Origin: a virus
UHGV virus genome: UHGV-0297460
Length of the DNA stretch: 27,542 nt
Strand: one strand, 5' to 3'
Below are positions 2,181-24,554 of the stretch, piece after piece; position 1 is the stretch's first letter, and each line of letters opens with the position of its first letter. The translations under genes and the position numbers were made by a program. Under the pieces are notes generated by a model, which did not search any database, was not told the DNA's origin, and saw only the letters and a list, made by a program, of their open reading frames with translations.

Positions 2181-3598
2181 TACTCGATCCTTATCTGGCA
2201 GCCAGACAGAGTGACAGGTGACTTCGTGATAACGCGCAATTTGAAGCCGACATTTTTCCTGATGCGCCCGACTCGCTTCCACAAAACGCGTTTGTCGTAA
2301 ACAAACGGTTCATTCTGCTCAATCATCTGCTCACGACCGTAATTGATGCCGTCAGTGGTTGCAGAGAGAAAAAGGCGGTCGGCGTACTGCGCAACGCCAG
2401 TTGAAGATTCAACTTCAAGGTCGAAAACTCTGGCGTTATCCGCTTTGAACAGAGGAGTAAACAGCAGATGCTCCTGTTGCTTGTCGTACTGGCTGCTGAT
2501 GTCGAATTGCAATTTCCCGGTCACGGACTCCAGCTTATCGCCGCACGTTATCTGATTGCCTTCGTAAATGAAGTCGATAGCGCGGTACACATCGTCATAC
2601 AGACCTGTTTTCAGTACACACCATTGCGGAGCATTGGCGCTTGAAGATGCGTCGTATACGAGGACATGGCGCGGAAGATGGATAATCAGCAGCTCATGCG
2701 CATCAAATCGCAGAGACTCCATCACACCATCAGCCAGTTCATCAGCAGTGTAGGAGCGAAGAATTTTCTCAATGCTCGCGCTGGCGATTGGTGACACCTG
2801 CCCGGAACCGATGATGTATACAGACGGCGCACCTGTTGCCGGATTGCTGATGAACGCATAGGAATCAGCGAATGGCGTTTTGCAATAGGTTCCGGCGATG
2901 CCTTTTTGCACCATCAGTGATGGCTGTGCGACATACAAAGCAGCACCAACGGTGGTTGCGCCAGTCAGGGAGAAATATTCAATAGTCGATGAACCAAAGC
3001 AGACGATGAAGTCTCGCCATGTCCCGATACCGATGATGCCGTCCGGCTGCGATTCTGCGCGATATTGTGCACTGTATCGGTCAGGGTGCGATTCGTCTTC
3101 AAGGTCAGTGATAAACCATGAATCAGTTCCGTCTTTTGACCACGCATAACGCCCACGTAAGCGAGTAATGTCGCGAACTGAACCTAACTCATACTGCGTG
3201 AATCCACTGTCTGTAGGCCAGTTTGAGACGGTTTTAACCGTGCCATCATAACGATACTCGACCAGTTGACCATTAACGCCTACAGCCTGTGATGTTCGAC
3301 CATGCGCCATTGATACGCGACCACTTCCGGCGACGTCACCAACTTCGCTTTCTCCTTTGTACAGCTTGCCGCCACACACGCGATAAACAGCACTCTGCGC
3401 CATGTTGTACTCGACGCCGCGCGATATACCATTCACATCAGAACGTTTGGCAATGCCCGGGAATGAGCGAAGATATCCGCTGCTGTTCAGGATTTCTTTG
3501 GGCGTAGCCAACATATTCACTGGCAGATAGTCGATATAGTCGGCGTTTCGAAAGTCTTTGCCGACACCTTTCATAAGCGGAAGTTGCTGAATCGGCAT
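2180..3598 (-). CDS. Tail accessory (head completion) protein, P22 gp10-like
   Basis: 472 aa, [49 protein letters not shown]... near-identical in pattern to P22 gp10 as recalled. Confidence 0.9.
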
Positions 3599-21376: not shown

Positions 21377-22027
21377 ATGAAAACTCAATTGATGGGAGAG
21401 CGCATTCGCGCTCGGAGAAAAGAACTCAAGATCAGGCAGGCCGCACTTGGAAAGATGGTCGGCGTGTCTAATGTTGCCATATCTCAGTGGGAACGCTCTG
21501 AGACAGAGCCAAATGGAGAGAATCTTCTCGCCCTGGCTAATGCGTTGAAGTGTTCCCCTGACTATCTGATGAAAGGAGAGGAAAGTCTTTCAAACATTGC
21601 CTATCACAGTAGGCATGATCCAAGAGGGTCATACCCTCTGATTAGCTGGGTGAGCGCAGGATGCTGGATGGAAGCTGTAGAACCATATCATAAGCGTGCA
21701 ATAGATAACTGGTACGATACAACCGTAGACTGTTCAGAAGATTCGTTTTGGTTGGACGTGAAGGGAGACTCAATGACGGCTCCGGCCGGTCTCAGTATCC
21801 CTGAAGGAATGATAATACTCGTCGATCCTGAAGTAGAGCCGCGTAACGGGAAACTGGTAGTTGCAAAGCTCGAAGGAGAAAACGAGGCAACTTTCAAGAA
21901 GTTAGTTATTGATGCAGGCAGGAAGTTTCTAAAACCACTTAACCCACAATATCCGATGATCGAGATCAACGGAAACTGCAAAATCATCGGCGTAGTTGTC
22001 GATGCAAAACTAGCAAACCTTCCATAA
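21377..22027 (+). CDS. c2: Prophage repressor, P22 C2-type (LexA-like autocleavable)
   Basis: 216 aa, MKTQLMGERIRARRKELKIRQAALGKMVGVSNVAISQWERSETEPNGENLL... near-identical to P22 C2 as recalled; C-terminal S24 peptidase region (GDSM...K). Confidence 0.95.
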   Translation: MKTQLMGERIRARRKELKIRQAALGKMVGVSNVAISQWERSETEPNGENLLALANALKCSPDYLMKGEESLSNIAYHSRHDPRGSYPLISWVSAGCWMEAVEPYHKRAIDNWYDTTVDCSEDSFWLDVKGDSMTAPAGLSIPEGMIILVDPEVEPRNGKLVVAKLEGENEATFKKLVIDAGRKFLKPLNPQYPMIEINGNCKIIGVVVDAKLANLP

Positions 22028-22052
22028 GGGGGCATTCGCCCCTTTTTTTTTA
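22028..22052 (+). terminator. Rho-independent terminator after repressor gene
   Basis: GGGGGC-attc-GCCCC hairpin followed by T9. Confidence 0.7.
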
Positions 22053-22093
22053 TTTCCTTTAAAAATCAAAGCCAAACTTAAGTTACGAAAGAA

Positions 22094-22148
22094 AATTTAA
22101 GTTTTCTTCAAAAATGCTCTTGACCATTAATTAAAGAGATCTTAAATT
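22094..22148 (+). promoter_or_regulatory. OL/PL region: operators (perfect palindrome ATTAAAGagatCTTAAAT at 22130-22147; weaker site 22094-22111) overlapping PL (-35 TTGACC 22120-22125, -10 TAAATT 22143-22148)
   Basis: Same half-site family as OR; promoter hexamers with 17 bp spacing. Confidence 0.65.
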
Positions 22149-22464
22149 TAAGCCATCAGCAGGACGCTGGAAGCCAAACGGAACAGATTGGCAGGCTCTT
22201 TAACATTGATGGGATTGTCCCGCCGAAATGCGGGAACCAAAGAGTAGTTGGCTTTGGGGTGACGTGAAGTGCAGCTGCACGACGGCAACCGGAAGATAAG
22301 CACCCGGCGCGTCACCGCCAAAGTCAATTCCATAGGCGTTATGCAGCCGCCACCATATTCAAGAAAGCTGCACAAGAGGTAGGAGGATTTATGTGAATGC
22401 ATAACTTCAAAACCGAGGTTAATTAAATCTCTCGATCCGAGCATCGACCTATTAGGTGGCGAGA

Positions 22465-22493
22465 TGCTCTTTCTGCCCCTCAGTTCGAGGGGC
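22465..22493 (+). promoter_or_regulatory. nutL-like site: boxA-like TGCTCTTTC plus boxB-like hairpin GCCCCTC-agttc-GAGGGGC
   Basis: Located about 60 nt upstream of the N-like gene start. Confidence 0.5.
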
Positions 22494-22548
22494 CAGAAAC
22501 CACTTTGCAATCACTATCAATTCCAAAGTTGTTTCATCGGAGGTCAAC

Positions 22549-22848
22549 ATGACAGTAGTCATTACATATCTGGCTGACGATAACGCCAGAAATCGCCGCA
22601 GAGCACGCAGACAGGCTCAACGTGAACAGGCGATGCAAGAACAGCGACTGGCGCGAAAAATTGCGCTAAAGCTCTCTGGTTGCGTCAGAGCGGATAAAGC
22701 AGCATCACTCGGAATCCTTCGCTGCAAGAAGGCAGATGAAGTCGAGAGTAAACAGAATCGTATTTACTACCGCAAGCCACGCAGTGAAATGGGTGTGACT
22801 TGTGTTGGTCGCCAGAAAATGAAATTAGGCAGCAAACCACTTATTTGA
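22549..22848 (+). CDS. N-like early antiterminator (P22 gp24-like)
   Basis: 99 aa from internal ATG with GGAGG SD; arginine-rich motif DNARNRRRARRQAQREQ near N-terminus; first gene of PL operon. Confidence 0.75.
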   Translation: MTVVITYLADDNARNRRRARRQAQREQAMQEQRLARKIALKLSGCVRADKAASLGILRCKKADEVESKQNRIYYRKPRSEMGVTCVGRQKMKLGSKPLI

Positions 22849-22856
22849 GGTGATAT

Positions 22857-23327
22857 ATGACAAAATCATGGAGCGTACCTTTTCCTGAATCAGAAACTGA
22901 ACATGATGGAATGCCTGTTTTCTGGAGATTCCAAGCGACAGTTGAAGAAGATGGAATCAAAATATTCGCACTTCAATATATAGCTTTTCATCAGACAGAG
23001 CATTATGCATGGTTGGTTCCTGCGCATTGGATTGTTAATTTTAAACCAGCACCAAATCAGTGGTTACAGGAATGGAAACAAAGGAGAAATAGATATGCAA
23101 TTAAGAAAGTAGCAAAAAATGCAGAAAGATCTTTTGCATTCCCGACGAAGAAACTTGCCATTGAAAGTTTATTGCGCCGGAAGAAATACCATTTGATGAG
23201 AATCAAACAAGATTTGGCTGTTGTATCAACTCTTGTTGATGGGATGAAGAATATTGATACATCAACACCAGGTATTGAATATAACTTTGGACACAACCAA
23301 GAAACAGAAAACTGGGTGTTTTATTAG
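22857..23327 (+). CDS. Hypothetical protein (156 aa), low-GC accessory gene downstream of N
   Basis: GAGGTG SD; visibly AT-rich relative to neighbours; followed by its own hairpin and terminator; no family recognised. Confidence 0.55.
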   Translation: MTKSWSVPFPESETEHDGMPVFWRFQATVEEDGIKIFALQYIAFHQTEHYAWLVPAHWIVNFKPAPNQWLQEWKQRRNRYAIKKVAKNAERSFAFPTKKLAIESLLRRKKYHLMRIKQDLAVVSTLVDGMKNIDTSTPGIEYNFGHNQETENWVFY

Positions 23328-23431
23328 TACGAATAAGCACTGTGTATTCATTCCAACGAGTGAATACACGGAGCAATGTCGCTCGTAACTAAACAGGAGC
23401 CGACTTGTTCTGATTATTGGAAATCTTCTTT

Positions 23432-23457
23432 GCCCTCCAGTGTGAGGGCTTTTTTAT
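23432..23457 (+). terminator. Rho-independent terminator (tL1-like)
   Basis: GCCCTC-cagtgt-GAGGGC followed by TTTTTTAT. Confidence 0.65.
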
Positions 23458-23521
23458 ATGCATACCAATAACGCTTCACTCGAGGCGTTTTCGTTATGCA
23501 ATCAAACAGAAGGAGCATCCT

Positions 23522-23692
23522 ATGCAACAGTTCGCTATTGCAGGGGCGGCATCGGTTCGCCCTTTCAACCCGATTTTATCGGTACAGCATTCACGAAAAA
23601 ACATTTTAACCGGAGCAGACTTTAAACAACCAAGAATGAAAAGCTTGCTCGAAAAGCTTTGGGATATTTTGAAACAACAAGGCCGTCCATGA
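23522..23692 (+). CDS. cIII: CIII-like protease-inhibitor peptide (lambda cIII / P22 c3 homolog)
   Basis: 56 aa, MQQFAIAGAASVRPF...SLLEKLWDILKQQGRP parallels lambda CIII MQYAIAG...ESLLERITRKLRDGWKRLIDILNQPGVP; AAGGAG SD. Confidence 0.65.
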   Translation: MQQFAIAGAASVRPFNPILSVQHSRKNILTGADFKQPRMKSLLEKLWDILKQQGRP

Positions 23693-23847
23693 GTTTTACG
23701 GATAACTGGTCAGACGAAGAATTCATTCGTCAGATAAAAGAATTAATCGGTAACGAAGGAGATATTCATGTCACTTGCAACCACAGTGAAGGAGAGCAAG
23801 TTACAGAGACGCATGTACACGCAGAAAGCTCTCTGGTATCGCCATAA
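23689..23847 (+). CDS. Small hypothetical protein (52 aa; kil position)
   Basis: ATG overlaps cIII stop (ATGA); MSFTDNWSDEEFIRQIKELIGNEGDIHVTCNHSEGEQ... Confidence 0.4.
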   Translation: MSFTDNWSDEEFIRQIKELIGNEGDIHVTCNHSEGEQVTETHVHAESSLVSP

Positions 23848-23948
23848 TGGTGACCGCGAAGGAATGCGGGTATGCCTTAATTTGTCCCGAGTCGAAGTAT
23901 TAAATCAGCGTTATTTCCTTGGGCCGTGTCCATTCTGAGAGCAATCAT

Positions 23949-24554
23949 ATGAGCAAAGAATTTTACGCAAGACTGGCAGCTATTCAGGAGAATCTGAACG
24001 CGCCAAAGAATCAGTACAACTCATTCGGCAAATATAAATACAGAAGCTGCGAAGATATTCTTGAAGGCGTTAAGCCGTTACTGAACGGTCTGTTTTTATC
24101 AATCAGCGATGAAGTTGTGTTGATTGGTGATCGGTATTACGTGAAAGCCACGGCAACTATTACCGATGGCGAAAACAGTCATACGGCAACCGCTCTTGCA
24201 CGAGAGGAAGAAAGCAAGAAAGGAATGGATTCTGCACAAGTTACGGGAGCTACAAGCTCTTATGCACGCAAGTATTGCCTCAATGGTTTGTTCGGCATTG
24301 ATGATGCGAAAGATGCAGATACAGACGAGCATAAACATCAGCAGAACGCAGCAGCAAAGCAATCAAAACCATCACTTACACCTGAACAGGTTCTAAAAGC
24401 ATTCACTGACGCAGCAATGCAGAAAAACACCGTAGAAGAGCTTAAACAGGCGTTCGCCAAAGCGTGGAAGATGCTCGAAGGGACGCCGGAGCAGCACAAA
24501 GCGCAGGACGTTTACAACATCAGACGAGACGAATTAGAAGGGGCAACTGCTTAA
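23949..24554 (+). CDS. erf: Erf-family single-strand annealing recombination protein
   Basis: Internal start MSKEFYARLAAIQENLNAPKNQYNSFGKYKYRSCEDILEGVKPLLNGLFLSISDEVVLIGDRYYVKATATITDGENSH... matches P22 Erf as recalled. Confidence 0.9.
   Translation: MSKEFYARLAAIQENLNAPKNQYNSFGKYKYRSCEDILEGVKPLLNGLFLSISDEVVLIGDRYYVKATATITDGENSHTATALAREEESKKGMDSAQVTGATSSYARKYCLNGLFGIDDAKDADTDEHKHQQNAAAKQSKPSLTPEQVLKAFTDAAMQKNTVEELKQAFAKAWKMLEGTPEQHKAQDVYNIRRDELEGATA

What the first reader, a model, noticed from the sequence alone, without database searches (positions are those of the whole stretch)
22857..23460. Low-GC accessory gene directly after the N-like antiterminator, with its own hairpin and terminator
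The 156 aa ORF at 22857-23327 is visibly more AT-rich than the flanking phage genes (by eye, not computed). It has a strong SD and is followed by a 9 bp-stem hairpin (23349-23376) and a rho-independent terminator (23432-23457). It occupies the slot where lambdoid phages carry superinfection-exclusion, restriction-alleviation or host-interference genes (lambda ral/sieB, P22 gene 17 region). No family was recognised, making it a candidate moron such as an anti-defence or exclusion factor.
Basis: partly seen in the sequence, partly recalled or inferred. Interest (0 to 1): 0.55.

Follow-up and report, generated by a model that had tools for sequence, protein, structure and literature searches.

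The report
Uncharacterised phage early gene beside PreS
The AT-rich gene after the N antiterminator is real and strongly conserved, but it is the long-catalogued, function-unknown HK97 gp45 / 933W L0079 gene, and the hairpin and terminator after it belong to the lambda small-RNA PreS and terminator tL2a, not to the gene.

Summary
The ORF at 22857-23327 is a genuine gene. Its GC is 0.367 and GC3 0.29, the lowest of 33 ORFs (z about -4). dN/dS against close relatives is 0.03-0.05. It is 99% identical to HK97 gp45 and 933W L0079 (PHROG 1636, unknown function) and occurs in about 10% of complete E. coli genomes.

It has no promoter of its own. Its Shine-Dalgarno sequence overlaps the N stop codon, and no intrinsic terminator lies between pL and its 3' end.

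The hairpin and terminator are not its own. Window 23337-23449 is 113/113 identical to lambda between ral and ea10. That is the published Hfq-dependent sRNA PreS/LPR1, which ends at terminator tL2a. This block occurs in 2238 of 5426 E. coli genomes, four times more than the ORF.

The moron label and any anti-defence or exclusion function remain unproven. My best guess, at low confidence, is an early lytic-cycle factor that binds a host protein or nucleic acid.

The parts
22120..22148 (+). pL-like sigma-70 promoter (TTGACC-17-TAAATT). It is the only promoter-like site on the + strand upstream of the ORF.
   Evidence: It is flanked by P22-type operator-like palindromes (I5, I8, I9).
22465..22493 (+). 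nutL-like site: boxA-like TGCTCTTT (22465-22472) and a boxB hairpin GCCCCTC-AGTTC-GAGGGGC (22475-22493).
   Evidence: (I18) and direct reading. Assigned by analogy with the nutL annotated in 933W and HK620; this is an inference.
22549..22848 (+). N-like antitermination protein (99 aa, arginine-rich N-terminus).
   Evidence: PHROG 271, E 2.9e-36. The same gene is annotated 'antitermination protein N' in phage 611R6.
22847..22853 (+). Shine-Dalgarno GAGGTGA of the ORF, overlapping the N stop codon TGA (22846-22848). Translational coupling to N is likely.
   Evidence: Read directly. The junction is conserved in 933W and HK97.
22857..23327 (+). The 156-aa gene, orthologous to HK97 gp45, 933W L0079 (NP_049479) and WP_000167596.1; PHROG 1636. 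A soluble, basic, AT-rich cassette of unknown function.
23342..23369 (+). Conserved 12-bp hairpin (GUGUAUUCAUUC / GAGUGAAUACAC, loop CAAC). It is backbone sequence shared with lambda, HK620, HK97 and 933W, and lies immediately 5' of the PreS body.
   Evidence: (I2). It is absent from the diverged Salmonella copies, which start at 23371.
23370..23457 (+). Homologue of the lambda Hfq-dependent sRNA PreS (LPR1; about 88 nt, processed to about 68 nt). The 5' end is inferred from the published size; the 3' end is tL2a.
   Evidence: Identical to lambda through 23449. Literature: bioRxiv 10.1101/2024.10.31.621285 and PMC12197685. Fold.
23432..23457 (+). Intrinsic terminator tL2a (GCCCTC-CAGTGT-GAGGGC followed by T6).
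   Evidence: The homologous site is annotated tL2A in HK620 and 'terminator' in HK97.
23470..23495 (+). Second terminator-like hairpin, the counterpart of tL2b. In lambda it lies after ea10; ea10 is absent here.
23522..23692 (+). cIII homologue, the next gene of the pL operon (context).
   Evidence: PHROG 550, E 1e-22.

Best explanation
The finding combines two separable things.

(A) The ORF (shown). It is a real gene under strong purifying selection. It is the orthologue of HK97 gp45 / 933W L0079 (PHROG 1636). It is an AT-rich, single-gene cassette in the hypervariable slot between N and the PreS/tL2a block of the leftward early (pL) operon of a P22-like E. coli prophage. The product is an 18.6-kDa cytoplasmic protein. 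Its centre is strongly basic (residues 61-120, net +13) and its ends are acidic. The confidently predicted fold is a long three-stranded beta-meander, two short helices, a fourth strand, a 33-residue helix and a conserved C-terminal tail. No solved structure resembles it.

Expression (inferred). The gene has no promoter. Its ribosome-binding site overlaps the N stop codon, and no intrinsic terminator lies between pL and tL2a. It should therefore be made together with N as soon as pL fires, on infection or induction, before antitermination is needed. It should be silent in the repressed prophage.

Function (inferred, low confidence, about 0.35). Like the other small pL-operon products (Gam, Kil, CIII, Ral, Abc2), it most likely acts early in lytic growth. 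It would bind and neutralise or redirect a host protein or nucleic acid, that is, counter-defence or host takeover. It is probably not a prophage-expressed exclusion function.

(B) The hairpin and terminator (shown). They are conserved lambdoid backbone, not part of the cassette. The terminator is tL2a, the 3' end of the Hfq-dependent sRNA PreS/LPR1. In lambda, PreS activates translation of host dnaN and supports phage DNA replication. The hairpin abuts the inferred PreS 5' end. It may mark a processing site or stabilise the upstream mRNA; that last point is inference.
For: Real gene:
- dN/dS is 0.03-0.05 against 933W and HK97 (8-9 synonymous changes against 1-2 non-synonymous).
- 40 columns are invariant across 22 orthologues of 55-99% identity.
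- The profile search found 87 relatives.
- The AlphaFold model has pLDDT 95.6 and pTM 0.82.

Identity:
- PHROG 1636, E 1e-111, full length.
- 99% identical to 933W NP_049479 and HK97 Gp45.
- The ORF region is 100% identical to the E. coli ATCC 11775 prophage, protein WP_000167596.1.
- Present in 563 of 5426 complete E. coli genomes.

Cassette:
- GC and GC3 z about -4.
- The right boundary is at the stop codon, where homology to lambda and HK620 begins.
- The left junction carries the 3' end of a 21-type N gene, which persists as a 58-nt non-coding remnant in 933W and HK97.
- Other phages hold unrelated genes between N and the same hairpin.
- No conserved partner gene was found across 7 loci.

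Protein properties: pI 9.3, no hydrophobic segment (maximum Kyte-Doolittle over 19 residues 0.56), no Cys, basic core.

No known fold or family:
- Pfam, NCBIfam, PADLOC and PDB sequence searches were negative.
- All 13 BFVD matches at E below 1e-3 are unnamed or 'uncharacterized' proteins, from phages of Erwinia, Achromobacter, Delftia, Tenacibaculum, Cellulophaga and Rhizobium where an organism is given.

Expression logic:
- pL is the only promoter-like site. There is no + strand terminator between 22046 and 23432.
- The Shine-Dalgarno sequence overlaps the N stop codon.

Early-operon context everywhere: orthologues and distant homologues lie in leftward early operons between recombination genes and int.

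PreS/tL2a:
- 113/113 identity to lambda 34045-33933.
- HK620 annotates tL2A and tL2B at the aligned positions.
- The paper places LPR1/PreS between ral and ea10 with tL2a as its 3' end.
- The block is in 2238 of 5426 E. coli genomes.
Against: - Nothing here bears directly on function. The family has no characterised member, no catalytic motif, no recognisable DNA- or RNA-binding domain and no similarity to any solved anti-defence protein.
- The immediate-early position is not conserved. Pectobacterium and Brenneria orthologues sit at the distal end of the operon, next to xis-int. Timing therefore cannot be essential to the function.
- It co-occurs with ral in phi367, so it is not simply a Ral substitute.
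- It is essentially absent from plasmids (11 of 72,556, none mobilisable). Many anti-restriction genes, by contrast, are plasmid-borne.
- Rho-dependent termination between N and the ORF cannot be excluded by sequence.
- Orthologues in three other genera are each followed by an unrelated intrinsic terminator. So a recurrent gene-plus-terminator arrangement cannot be dismissed entirely.
Confidence: 0.4

Rival explanations
1. Restriction-alleviation or other anti-defence protein in the strict sense. It would be made first after DNA entry and would block a host nuclease or defence system. It would be a functional analogue of Ral, Ocr or Gam that occupies the ral slot.
For: - It occupies the same slot as lambda ral and Sf101 'restriction inhibitor'.
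- It lies in the pre-terminator, N-coupled position.
- DNA methyltransferase genes lie within about 1.5 kb of four distant homologues.
- Fold relatives occur in virulent as well as temperate phages.
- An AT-rich mobile cassette in a hotspot is typical of arms-race genes.
Against: - No similarity to Ral, an ECP1 'anti-restriction protein' or any solved anti-defence protein.
- It is basic, so not a DNA mimic.
- It co-occurs with ral in phi367.
- It is not found on mobilisable plasmids.
- The methylase association may only reflect the general content of early operons.
Confidence: 0.2
2. Nucleic-acid-binding regulator of phage development. It would be a DNA- or RNA-binding protein acting on the phage's own early transcription, RNA processing (possibly of the adjacent PreS) or site-specific recombination.
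For: - Strongly basic core with a long amphipathic helix.
- Translational coupling to N, and historical linkage to the 21-type N 3' end.
- Always directly upstream of PreS in E. coli phages.
- Directly upstream of xis-int in Pectobacteriaceae.
Against: - PreS occurs without the ORF in about three quarters of E. coli genomes that carry it.
- The position relative to N, PreS and xis differs between genera, so no single cis partner is conserved.
Confidence: 0.2
3. Prophage-expressed moron: a superinfection-exclusion or defence factor that protects the lysogen, like SieB, P22 gp17-region genes or HK97 gp15.
For: - Deviant GC.
- A terminator downstream here and, with unrelated sequences, downstream of orthologues in Pectobacterium, Brenneria and Rosenbergiella.
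- The slot hosts sieB in lambda.
Against: - No promoter-like site; the ATG is 8 nt after the N stop codon; it sits downstream of repressor-controlled pL.
- No transmembrane segment, unlike lambda SieB, whose N-terminus is visibly hydrophobic.
- No PADLOC hit.
- The terminator is lambda backbone.
- Fold relatives occur in phages of many hosts; by my own knowledge, not checked here, some of these are virulent phages with no lysogenic state.
Confidence: 0.08
4. Spurious or decaying ORF with no function: an AT-rich spacer between N and tL2a.
For: Annotated only as 'hypothetical' for 25 years. No domain hit.
Against: - dN/dS 0.03-0.05.
- Full-length conservation down to 55% identity across genera, and 20-30% identity in Vibrio, Pseudomonas and Marinobacterium elements.
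- pLDDT 95.6.
Confidence: 0.01

Closest known systems
HK97 gp45, 933W L0079 (ST933Wp19, NP_049479), the H-19B, phi24B and BP-4795 orthologues; PHROG 1636
   Same: Same gene: 98-99% amino-acid identity over all 156 residues. It has the same Shine-Dalgarno/ATG junction and the same downstream hairpin and tL2a.
   Different: Here the ORF follows an intact 21-type N by 8 nt. In 933W and HK97 a different N is followed by a 58-nt remnant of that N. The host phage here is a P22-like (Lederbergvirus-type) prophage with Erf/SSB/Abc2, not a Stx phage or an HK97-type siphovirus. None of these orthologues has an assigned function.
Lambda PreS (LPR1) sRNA with terminator tL2a, followed by tL2b
   Same: Window 23337-23449 is 113/113 identical to lambda 34045-33933. 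The position in the pL operon upstream of cIII is the same, and the G+C stem plus U-tail typical of Hfq sRNAs is present (bioRxiv 10.1101/2024.10.31.621285).
   Different: In lambda the upstream gene is ral, and ea10 separates tL2a from tL2b. Here the upstream gene is the 156-aa ORF and ea10 is missing. No predicted intrinsic terminator precedes it here, so it may be made without N (inference). Expression was not tested.
Lambda Ral (restriction alleviation)
   Same: Small pL-operon accessory protein in the same N-to-hairpin slot, 42 nt upstream of the same hairpin.
   Different: No sequence similarity (HMM score about 0). Ral is 66 aa and Cys-rich; this protein is 156 aa with no Cys. Both genes coexist in phi367.
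Lambda/P22 SieB and HK620 HkaP (superinfection exclusion)
   Same: Occupy the same variable slot after N.
   Different: They are encoded on the opposite strand in the records examined, and lambda SieB has a visibly hydrophobic N-terminus. By my own knowledge, not checked here, sieB has its own promoter and is expressed in lysogens. This ORF is on the pL strand, has no promoter, is soluble, and shows no similarity.
Morons as defined for HK97/HK022 (Juhala et al. 2000; Hendrix)
   Same: Deviant base composition, and insertion between two backbone genes.
   Different: It lacks its own promoter. The terminator is shared backbone rather than part of the insert.

Membership tests
PHROG 1636 (HK97 gp45 / 933W L0079 family) | Full-length match to the family profile | tested here: met
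   E 1.1e-111, residues 1-156 on profile 1-156; 99% identity to the named members.
PHROG 1636 (HK97 gp45 / 933W L0079 family) | Location in the leftward early operon of a temperate phage | tested here: met
   Lies between N and cIII here and in 933W, HK97 and PA28. Lies before xis-int in Pectobacterium and Brenneria.
Lambda PreS/LPR1 sRNA - tL2a | Sequence identity to the lambda ral-ea10 intergenic sRNA region | tested here: met
   113/113 identical to lambda 34045-33933.
Lambda PreS/LPR1 sRNA - tL2a | 3' end formed by a G+C stem plus U-tract (tL2a) | tested here: met
   Terminator scan 23432-23449 plus T6; HK620 annotates tL2A at the aligned site; the paper makes the same statement.
Lambda PreS/LPR1 sRNA - tL2a | Accumulates as ~88/68-nt Hfq-bound RNA in the lytic cycle and activates dnaN translation | not testable with these tools
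   Needs northern blotting, RIL-seq or a reporter assay. Known only for lambda.
Moron (promoter - gene - terminator insert expressed from the prophage) | Own promoter | tested here: not met
   No sigma-70-like site other than pL in 21900-24100. The ATG is 8 nt after the N stop codon. A consensus scan cannot exclude weak or atypical promoters.
Moron (promoter - gene - terminator insert expressed from the prophage) | Own terminator as part of the insert | tested here: not met
   The terminator and hairpin are identical to lambda and HK620, where different genes precede them.
Moron (promoter - gene - terminator insert expressed from the prophage) | Base composition different from its neighbours | tested here: met
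   GC z -4.05, GC3 z -4.14.
Ral / Lar restriction-alleviation proteins | Sequence similarity to Ral | tested here: not met
   The family HMM scores lambda Ral at about 0 bits; no Pfam or NCBIfam hit.
Ral / Lar restriction-alleviation proteins | Alleviates type I restriction in vivo | not testable with these tools
   Needs a plating assay on EcoKI+ hosts with unmodified phage.
SieB-type superinfection exclusion | Membrane protein homologous to SieB and expressed from the prophage | tested here: not met
   No hydrophobic segment; no similarity to lambda SieB or HK620 HkaP; no promoter.
Known anti-phage defence proteins (PADLOC-DB) | Match to any defence-system profile | tested here: not met
   Only Cas1_II at E 0.018, 12 bits, which is noise.
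AP2 / integrase-arm type three-stranded-sheet DNA-binding domains | Profile or fold similarity | tested here: not met

The most novel reading that the evidence does not exclude
The 156-aa protein is the founding, still uncharacterised member of a new-fold family of phage early proteins. The family spans lambdoid prophages of Enterobacterales and phages of Vibrio and Pseudomonas. More remote fold relatives occur in phages of Achromobacter, Delftia, Erwinia, Cellulophaga and Rhizobium. The protein would neutralise a host defence or hijack a host process. In this phage it would be made together with N before any antitermination. It is carried by about one in ten E. coli genomes, including the major Shiga-toxin phages.
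Probability: 0.3. Interest if true: 0.6.

Novelty: already known. Interest (0 to 1): 0.33.

Why it matters
The gene is one of the most widespread unexplained genes of lambdoid phages. It is present in 933W, H-19B, phi24B, BP-4795, HK97 and about 10% of complete E. coli genomes. It is under strong constraint, probably expressed at the very start of lytic growth, and predicted with high confidence to adopt a fold with no solved relative. That makes it a clean, cheap experimental target for discovering a new host-takeover or counter-defence activity in Shiga-toxin phages.

The re-assignment of the hairpin and terminator to PreS/tL2a matters for annotation. The same mistake, calling the backbone sRNA and terminator part of whatever cassette lies upstream, would recur across lambdoid prophages. 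It also shows that PreS sits directly downstream of a hypervariable gene slot. In this phage no intrinsic terminator lies between pL and PreS, so PreS might be produced without N.

Tried and rejected
Searches on the protein that found nothing useful:
- Pfam, NCBIfam and PADLOC on the protein, and Pfam on all 70 family members.
- PDB sequence search with the single sequence and with the profile; best E 0.2-0.4, noise.

Structure:
- Foldseek against AFDB50 was unavailable.
- An AP2/ERF or lambda-Int arm-binding fold, suggested by the 'RFAF-T-EEA' motif, gave hhalign probability below 1%.

Neighbouring genes:
- Tandem paralogues or a conserved partner gene next to distant homologues: none.
- Homology between the ORF and other occupants of the slot (Ral, orf28, Ea10, SieB, HkaQ/P, HK542_033, ECP1 gp57/59, Sf101 32-34, gp17-like): none.

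RNA: Rfam found nothing at gathering score over the whole window and nothing meaningful at E of 1 or less around the ORF. PreS is evidently not an Rfam family.

Literature: searches by accession, locus tag, PHROG number, peptide string and 'HK97 gp45' phrases found no paper on the protein.

Other:
- The search for related loci with the broad alignments failed for lack of a conserved peptide stretch.
- Plasmid search found only 11 non-mobilisable records, so there is no link to conjugative leading regions.

Full report
**What is there.**
The window is a P22-like lambdoid prophage. The stretch 22857-23460 is 100% identical to the chromosome of E. coli ATCC 11775, and the annotated gene order there matches the window's.

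Around the finding the + strand carries the leftward early operon:
- a LexA-type repressor (21377-22027);
- a pL-like promoter (22120-22148);
- a nutL-like boxA/boxB (22465-22493);
- an N-like antiterminator (22549-22848; PHROG 271, E 3e-36);
- the 156-aa ORF (22857-23327);
- a non-coding block;
- cIII (23522-23692), two small genes, Erf, SSB and Abc2.

**Checking the observation.**
The ORF is present as stated.

Its AT-richness is real. GC is 0.367 and GC3 0.288, against 0.483 ± 0.029 and 0.494 ± 0.050 for 32 other ORFs. That is z = -4.05 and -4.14, the lowest values in the window. Codon adaptation measured against the window's own codon usage is unremarkable (z -0.34), and rare codons are not enriched (z 0.7). 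So the gene is compositionally foreign but not obviously badly adapted.

The Shine-Dalgarno sequence GAGGTGA (22847-22853) overlaps the N stop codon, and the ATG follows 3 nt later.

The terminator at 23432-23449 plus T6 is found by the scan.

The hairpin exists, but its arms are 23342-23353 and 23358-23369 (12 bp, loop CAAC). The 122-nt block folds far better than shuffles (z -6.0).

A second terminator-like hairpin lies at 23470-23489.

**The gene is real and already catalogued.**
It matches PHROG 1636 ('unknown function') end to end (E 1e-111). It is 98-99% identical to HK97 Gp45, 933W ST933Wp19/L0079, and the corresponding ORFs of H-19B, phi24B, BP-4795, Min27, PA28 and many Stx1/Stx2 phages. 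All are annotated 'hypothetical protein'.

The ORF with its downstream block is found in 563 of 5426 complete E. coli genomes. It is in only 11 of 72,556 plasmids, none mobilisable.

Against 933W and HK97 there are 8-9 synonymous but only 1-2 non-synonymous differences (dN/dS 0.03-0.05).

Orthologues of 55-84% identity occur in Pectobacterium, Brenneria, Rosenbergiella, Cronobacter and Symbiopectobacterium, with 40 invariant columns.

A profile search of 1.8 billion representatives found 87 relatives. These include a distant group of about 140 aa at 20-30% identity. Members of that group sit in prophages of Marinobacterium and metagenomic contigs, and in phages of Vibrio and Pseudomonas.

**What the protein looks like.**
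It has no Pfam, NCBIfam, PADLOC or PDB-sequence match, alone or as a family.

It is 18.6 kDa with pI 9.3. It has no Cys and no hydrophobic segment. Residues 61-120 carry a net charge of +13, and both termini are acidic. 64 of 70 family members have pI above 8.

With only close orthologues AlphaFold was unsure (pLDDT 64). With the 70-sequence alignment it gave pLDDT 95.6 and pTM 0.82. The elements are:
- strands 19-30, 33-46 and 50-55;
- short helices 58-61 and 66-74;
- strand 83-86;
- one long helix 98-130;
- an ordered C-terminal tail carrying the invariant NFGHN-ET-W-F motif.

The fold therefore appears phage-restricted and unrepresented among solved structures. No enzyme-like constellation of invariant residues is evident. 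Across the wide family only G33, T47, K87 and A101 are near-invariant.

**The hairpin and terminator are not the gene's own.**
Megablast of 22857-23460 against E. coli genomes showed that the last 124 nt occur in 2238 genomes, four times as many as the ORF. One of them is a lambda lysogen. There the block lies between ral and ea10.

Window 23337-23449 is 113/113 identical to lambda 34045-33933. Homology to lambda and HK620 starts right after the ORF's stop codon.

HK620's record labels the aligned terminators tL2A and tL2B, and HK97's record marks the first as a putative terminator. In lambda, tL2b follows ea10. Here, as in HK97 and HK620, ea10 is missing and the two terminators are adjacent.

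A 2024 preprint (bioRxiv 10.1101/2024.10.31.621285; also reviewed in PMC12197685) describes an Hfq-dependent sRNA, LPR1/PreS, 'between ea10 and ral'. Its 3' end is tL2a. It is about 88 nt, processed to about 68 nt. It is made only in the lytic cycle, and it activates dnaN translation to support lambda DNA replication.

Counting 88 nt back from the U-tract puts the PreS 5' end at about 23370, the base of the hairpin. Diverged Salmonella copies (ES18, S137; 74% identity) begin at 23371 and lack the hairpin. The hairpin is therefore a separate, E. coli-lambdoid backbone element abutting PreS. A role in 5' processing or in protecting the upstream mRNA is my inference.

**The slot.**
Between N and this hairpin, different phages carry different genes:
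- lambda: sieB (opposite strand), orf28 and ral;
- HK620: hkaQ and hkaP;
- HK542: a 207-aa unknown;
- ECP1: two small unknowns;
- Sf101: orf28, ral and two unknowns;
- PA28: a small ORF and this gene;
- phi367: an unknown, ral and this gene.

None of these is detectably related to the 156-aa family.

In 933W and HK97 the 58 nt before the ORF are identical to the 3' end of this window's 21-type N gene. The cassette therefore seems to have travelled with that N end.

In Pectobacterium and Brenneria the orthologue sits instead at the far end of the early operon, just before xis-int. It is again followed by an unrelated intrinsic terminator. No partner gene is conserved.

**How it most likely works.**
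Shown: the gene has no promoter-like site of its own. It is 8 nt from N with an overlapping ribosome-binding site. No intrinsic terminator is predicted between pL and tL2a.

Inferred: it is transcribed and probably translationally coupled with N as an immediate-early product on infection or induction, and it is silent under repressor control. This argues against a lysogen-protecting exclusion function. So does the lack of any membrane segment.

The pL operon encodes several small proteins that bind host targets. This is established knowledge, not tested here: Gam binds RecBCD, Kil FtsZ, CIII FtsH, Ral EcoKI and Abc2 RecBCD. On that basis I think the most likely role is a cytoplasmic binder, through its basic core and long helix, of a host protein or nucleic acid. 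It would aid early lytic growth, whether by counter-defence or host takeover.

I put about 0.35 on that broad class. Strict anti-defence gets about 0.2, a phage-directed nucleic-acid-binding regulator about 0.2, and prophage exclusion below 0.1. Nothing computed here distinguishes these directly.

**Verdict.**
It is wrong on 'own hairpin and terminator' and on 'moron'.

The gene is already known as a sequence but unexplained. The RNA elements are already known and explained.

Interest is moderate to low as a discovery. It is nevertheless a good experimental target, given its prevalence in Shiga-toxin phages, strong constraint, probable immediate-early expression and apparently new fold.

Noticed in passing
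window 23376-23471 (+): A 31-aa ORF (MSLVTKQEPTCSDYWKSSLPSSVRAFLYAYQ) lies inside the PreS sequence, with GGAG 4 nt before its ATG. In phage 611R6 the same start is annotated as a 77-aa CDS. Whether PreS is also translated is unknown.
   Followed up: partly
L001 (933W) 3443-3500; L002 (HK97) 2943-3000; window 22795-22848: 933W and HK97 keep a 58-nt non-coding stretch upstream of the ORF. It is identical to the 3' coding end of this window's 21-type N gene. This is a recombination scar showing the cassette was once joined to that N type.
   Followed up: yes
window 23432-23495: tL2a and a tL2b-like terminator are adjacent because ea10, which separates them in lambda, is absent, as in HK97 and HK620. 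In PA28 a gp17-like gene occupies that second slot, and in ECP1 an 'anti-restriction protein' does.
   Followed up: partly
window 22046-23431 (+): No intrinsic terminator is predicted between pL and tL2a. There is no counterpart of the tL1 that HK620 annotates after N. In this phage the ORF and PreS may therefore be produced without N antitermination.
   Followed up: no
L025 4475-4560; L026 4472-4556; L027 508-590; L024 593-720: Orthologues in Brenneria, Pectobacterium and Rosenbergiella are each followed by an intrinsic terminator unrelated in sequence to tL2a (for example GGGCGTGTC-ATTG-GCACGCCC plus a T-run). In Pectobacterium betavasculorum xis-int follow.
   Followed up: partly
L006 8692-9576; L008 4374-6305; L009 4864-5595; L020 1501-3189: DNA methyltransferase genes lie within about 1.5 kb of four distant homologues of the ORF. 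This may only reflect the usual content of early operons.
   Followed up: no
window 22148-22548: The leader between pL and the N start is unusually long, about 400 nt. It holds nutL and an imperfect 16-nt inverted repeat just before the N start (22496-22511 / 22520-22535, I3). An antisense 98-aa ORF (22148-22444) has normal GC but is not annotated in the identical RefSeq prophage.
   Followed up: no
window 1-20400 (- strand): The rest of the window is a P22-like morphogenesis, lysis and replication module: a 732-aa portal-sized ORF, a 471-aa terminase-sized ORF and a 417-aa coat-sized ORF. The closest phage record over the query 22400-23700 is the Lederbergvirus vB_EcoP-611R6.
   Followed up: partly
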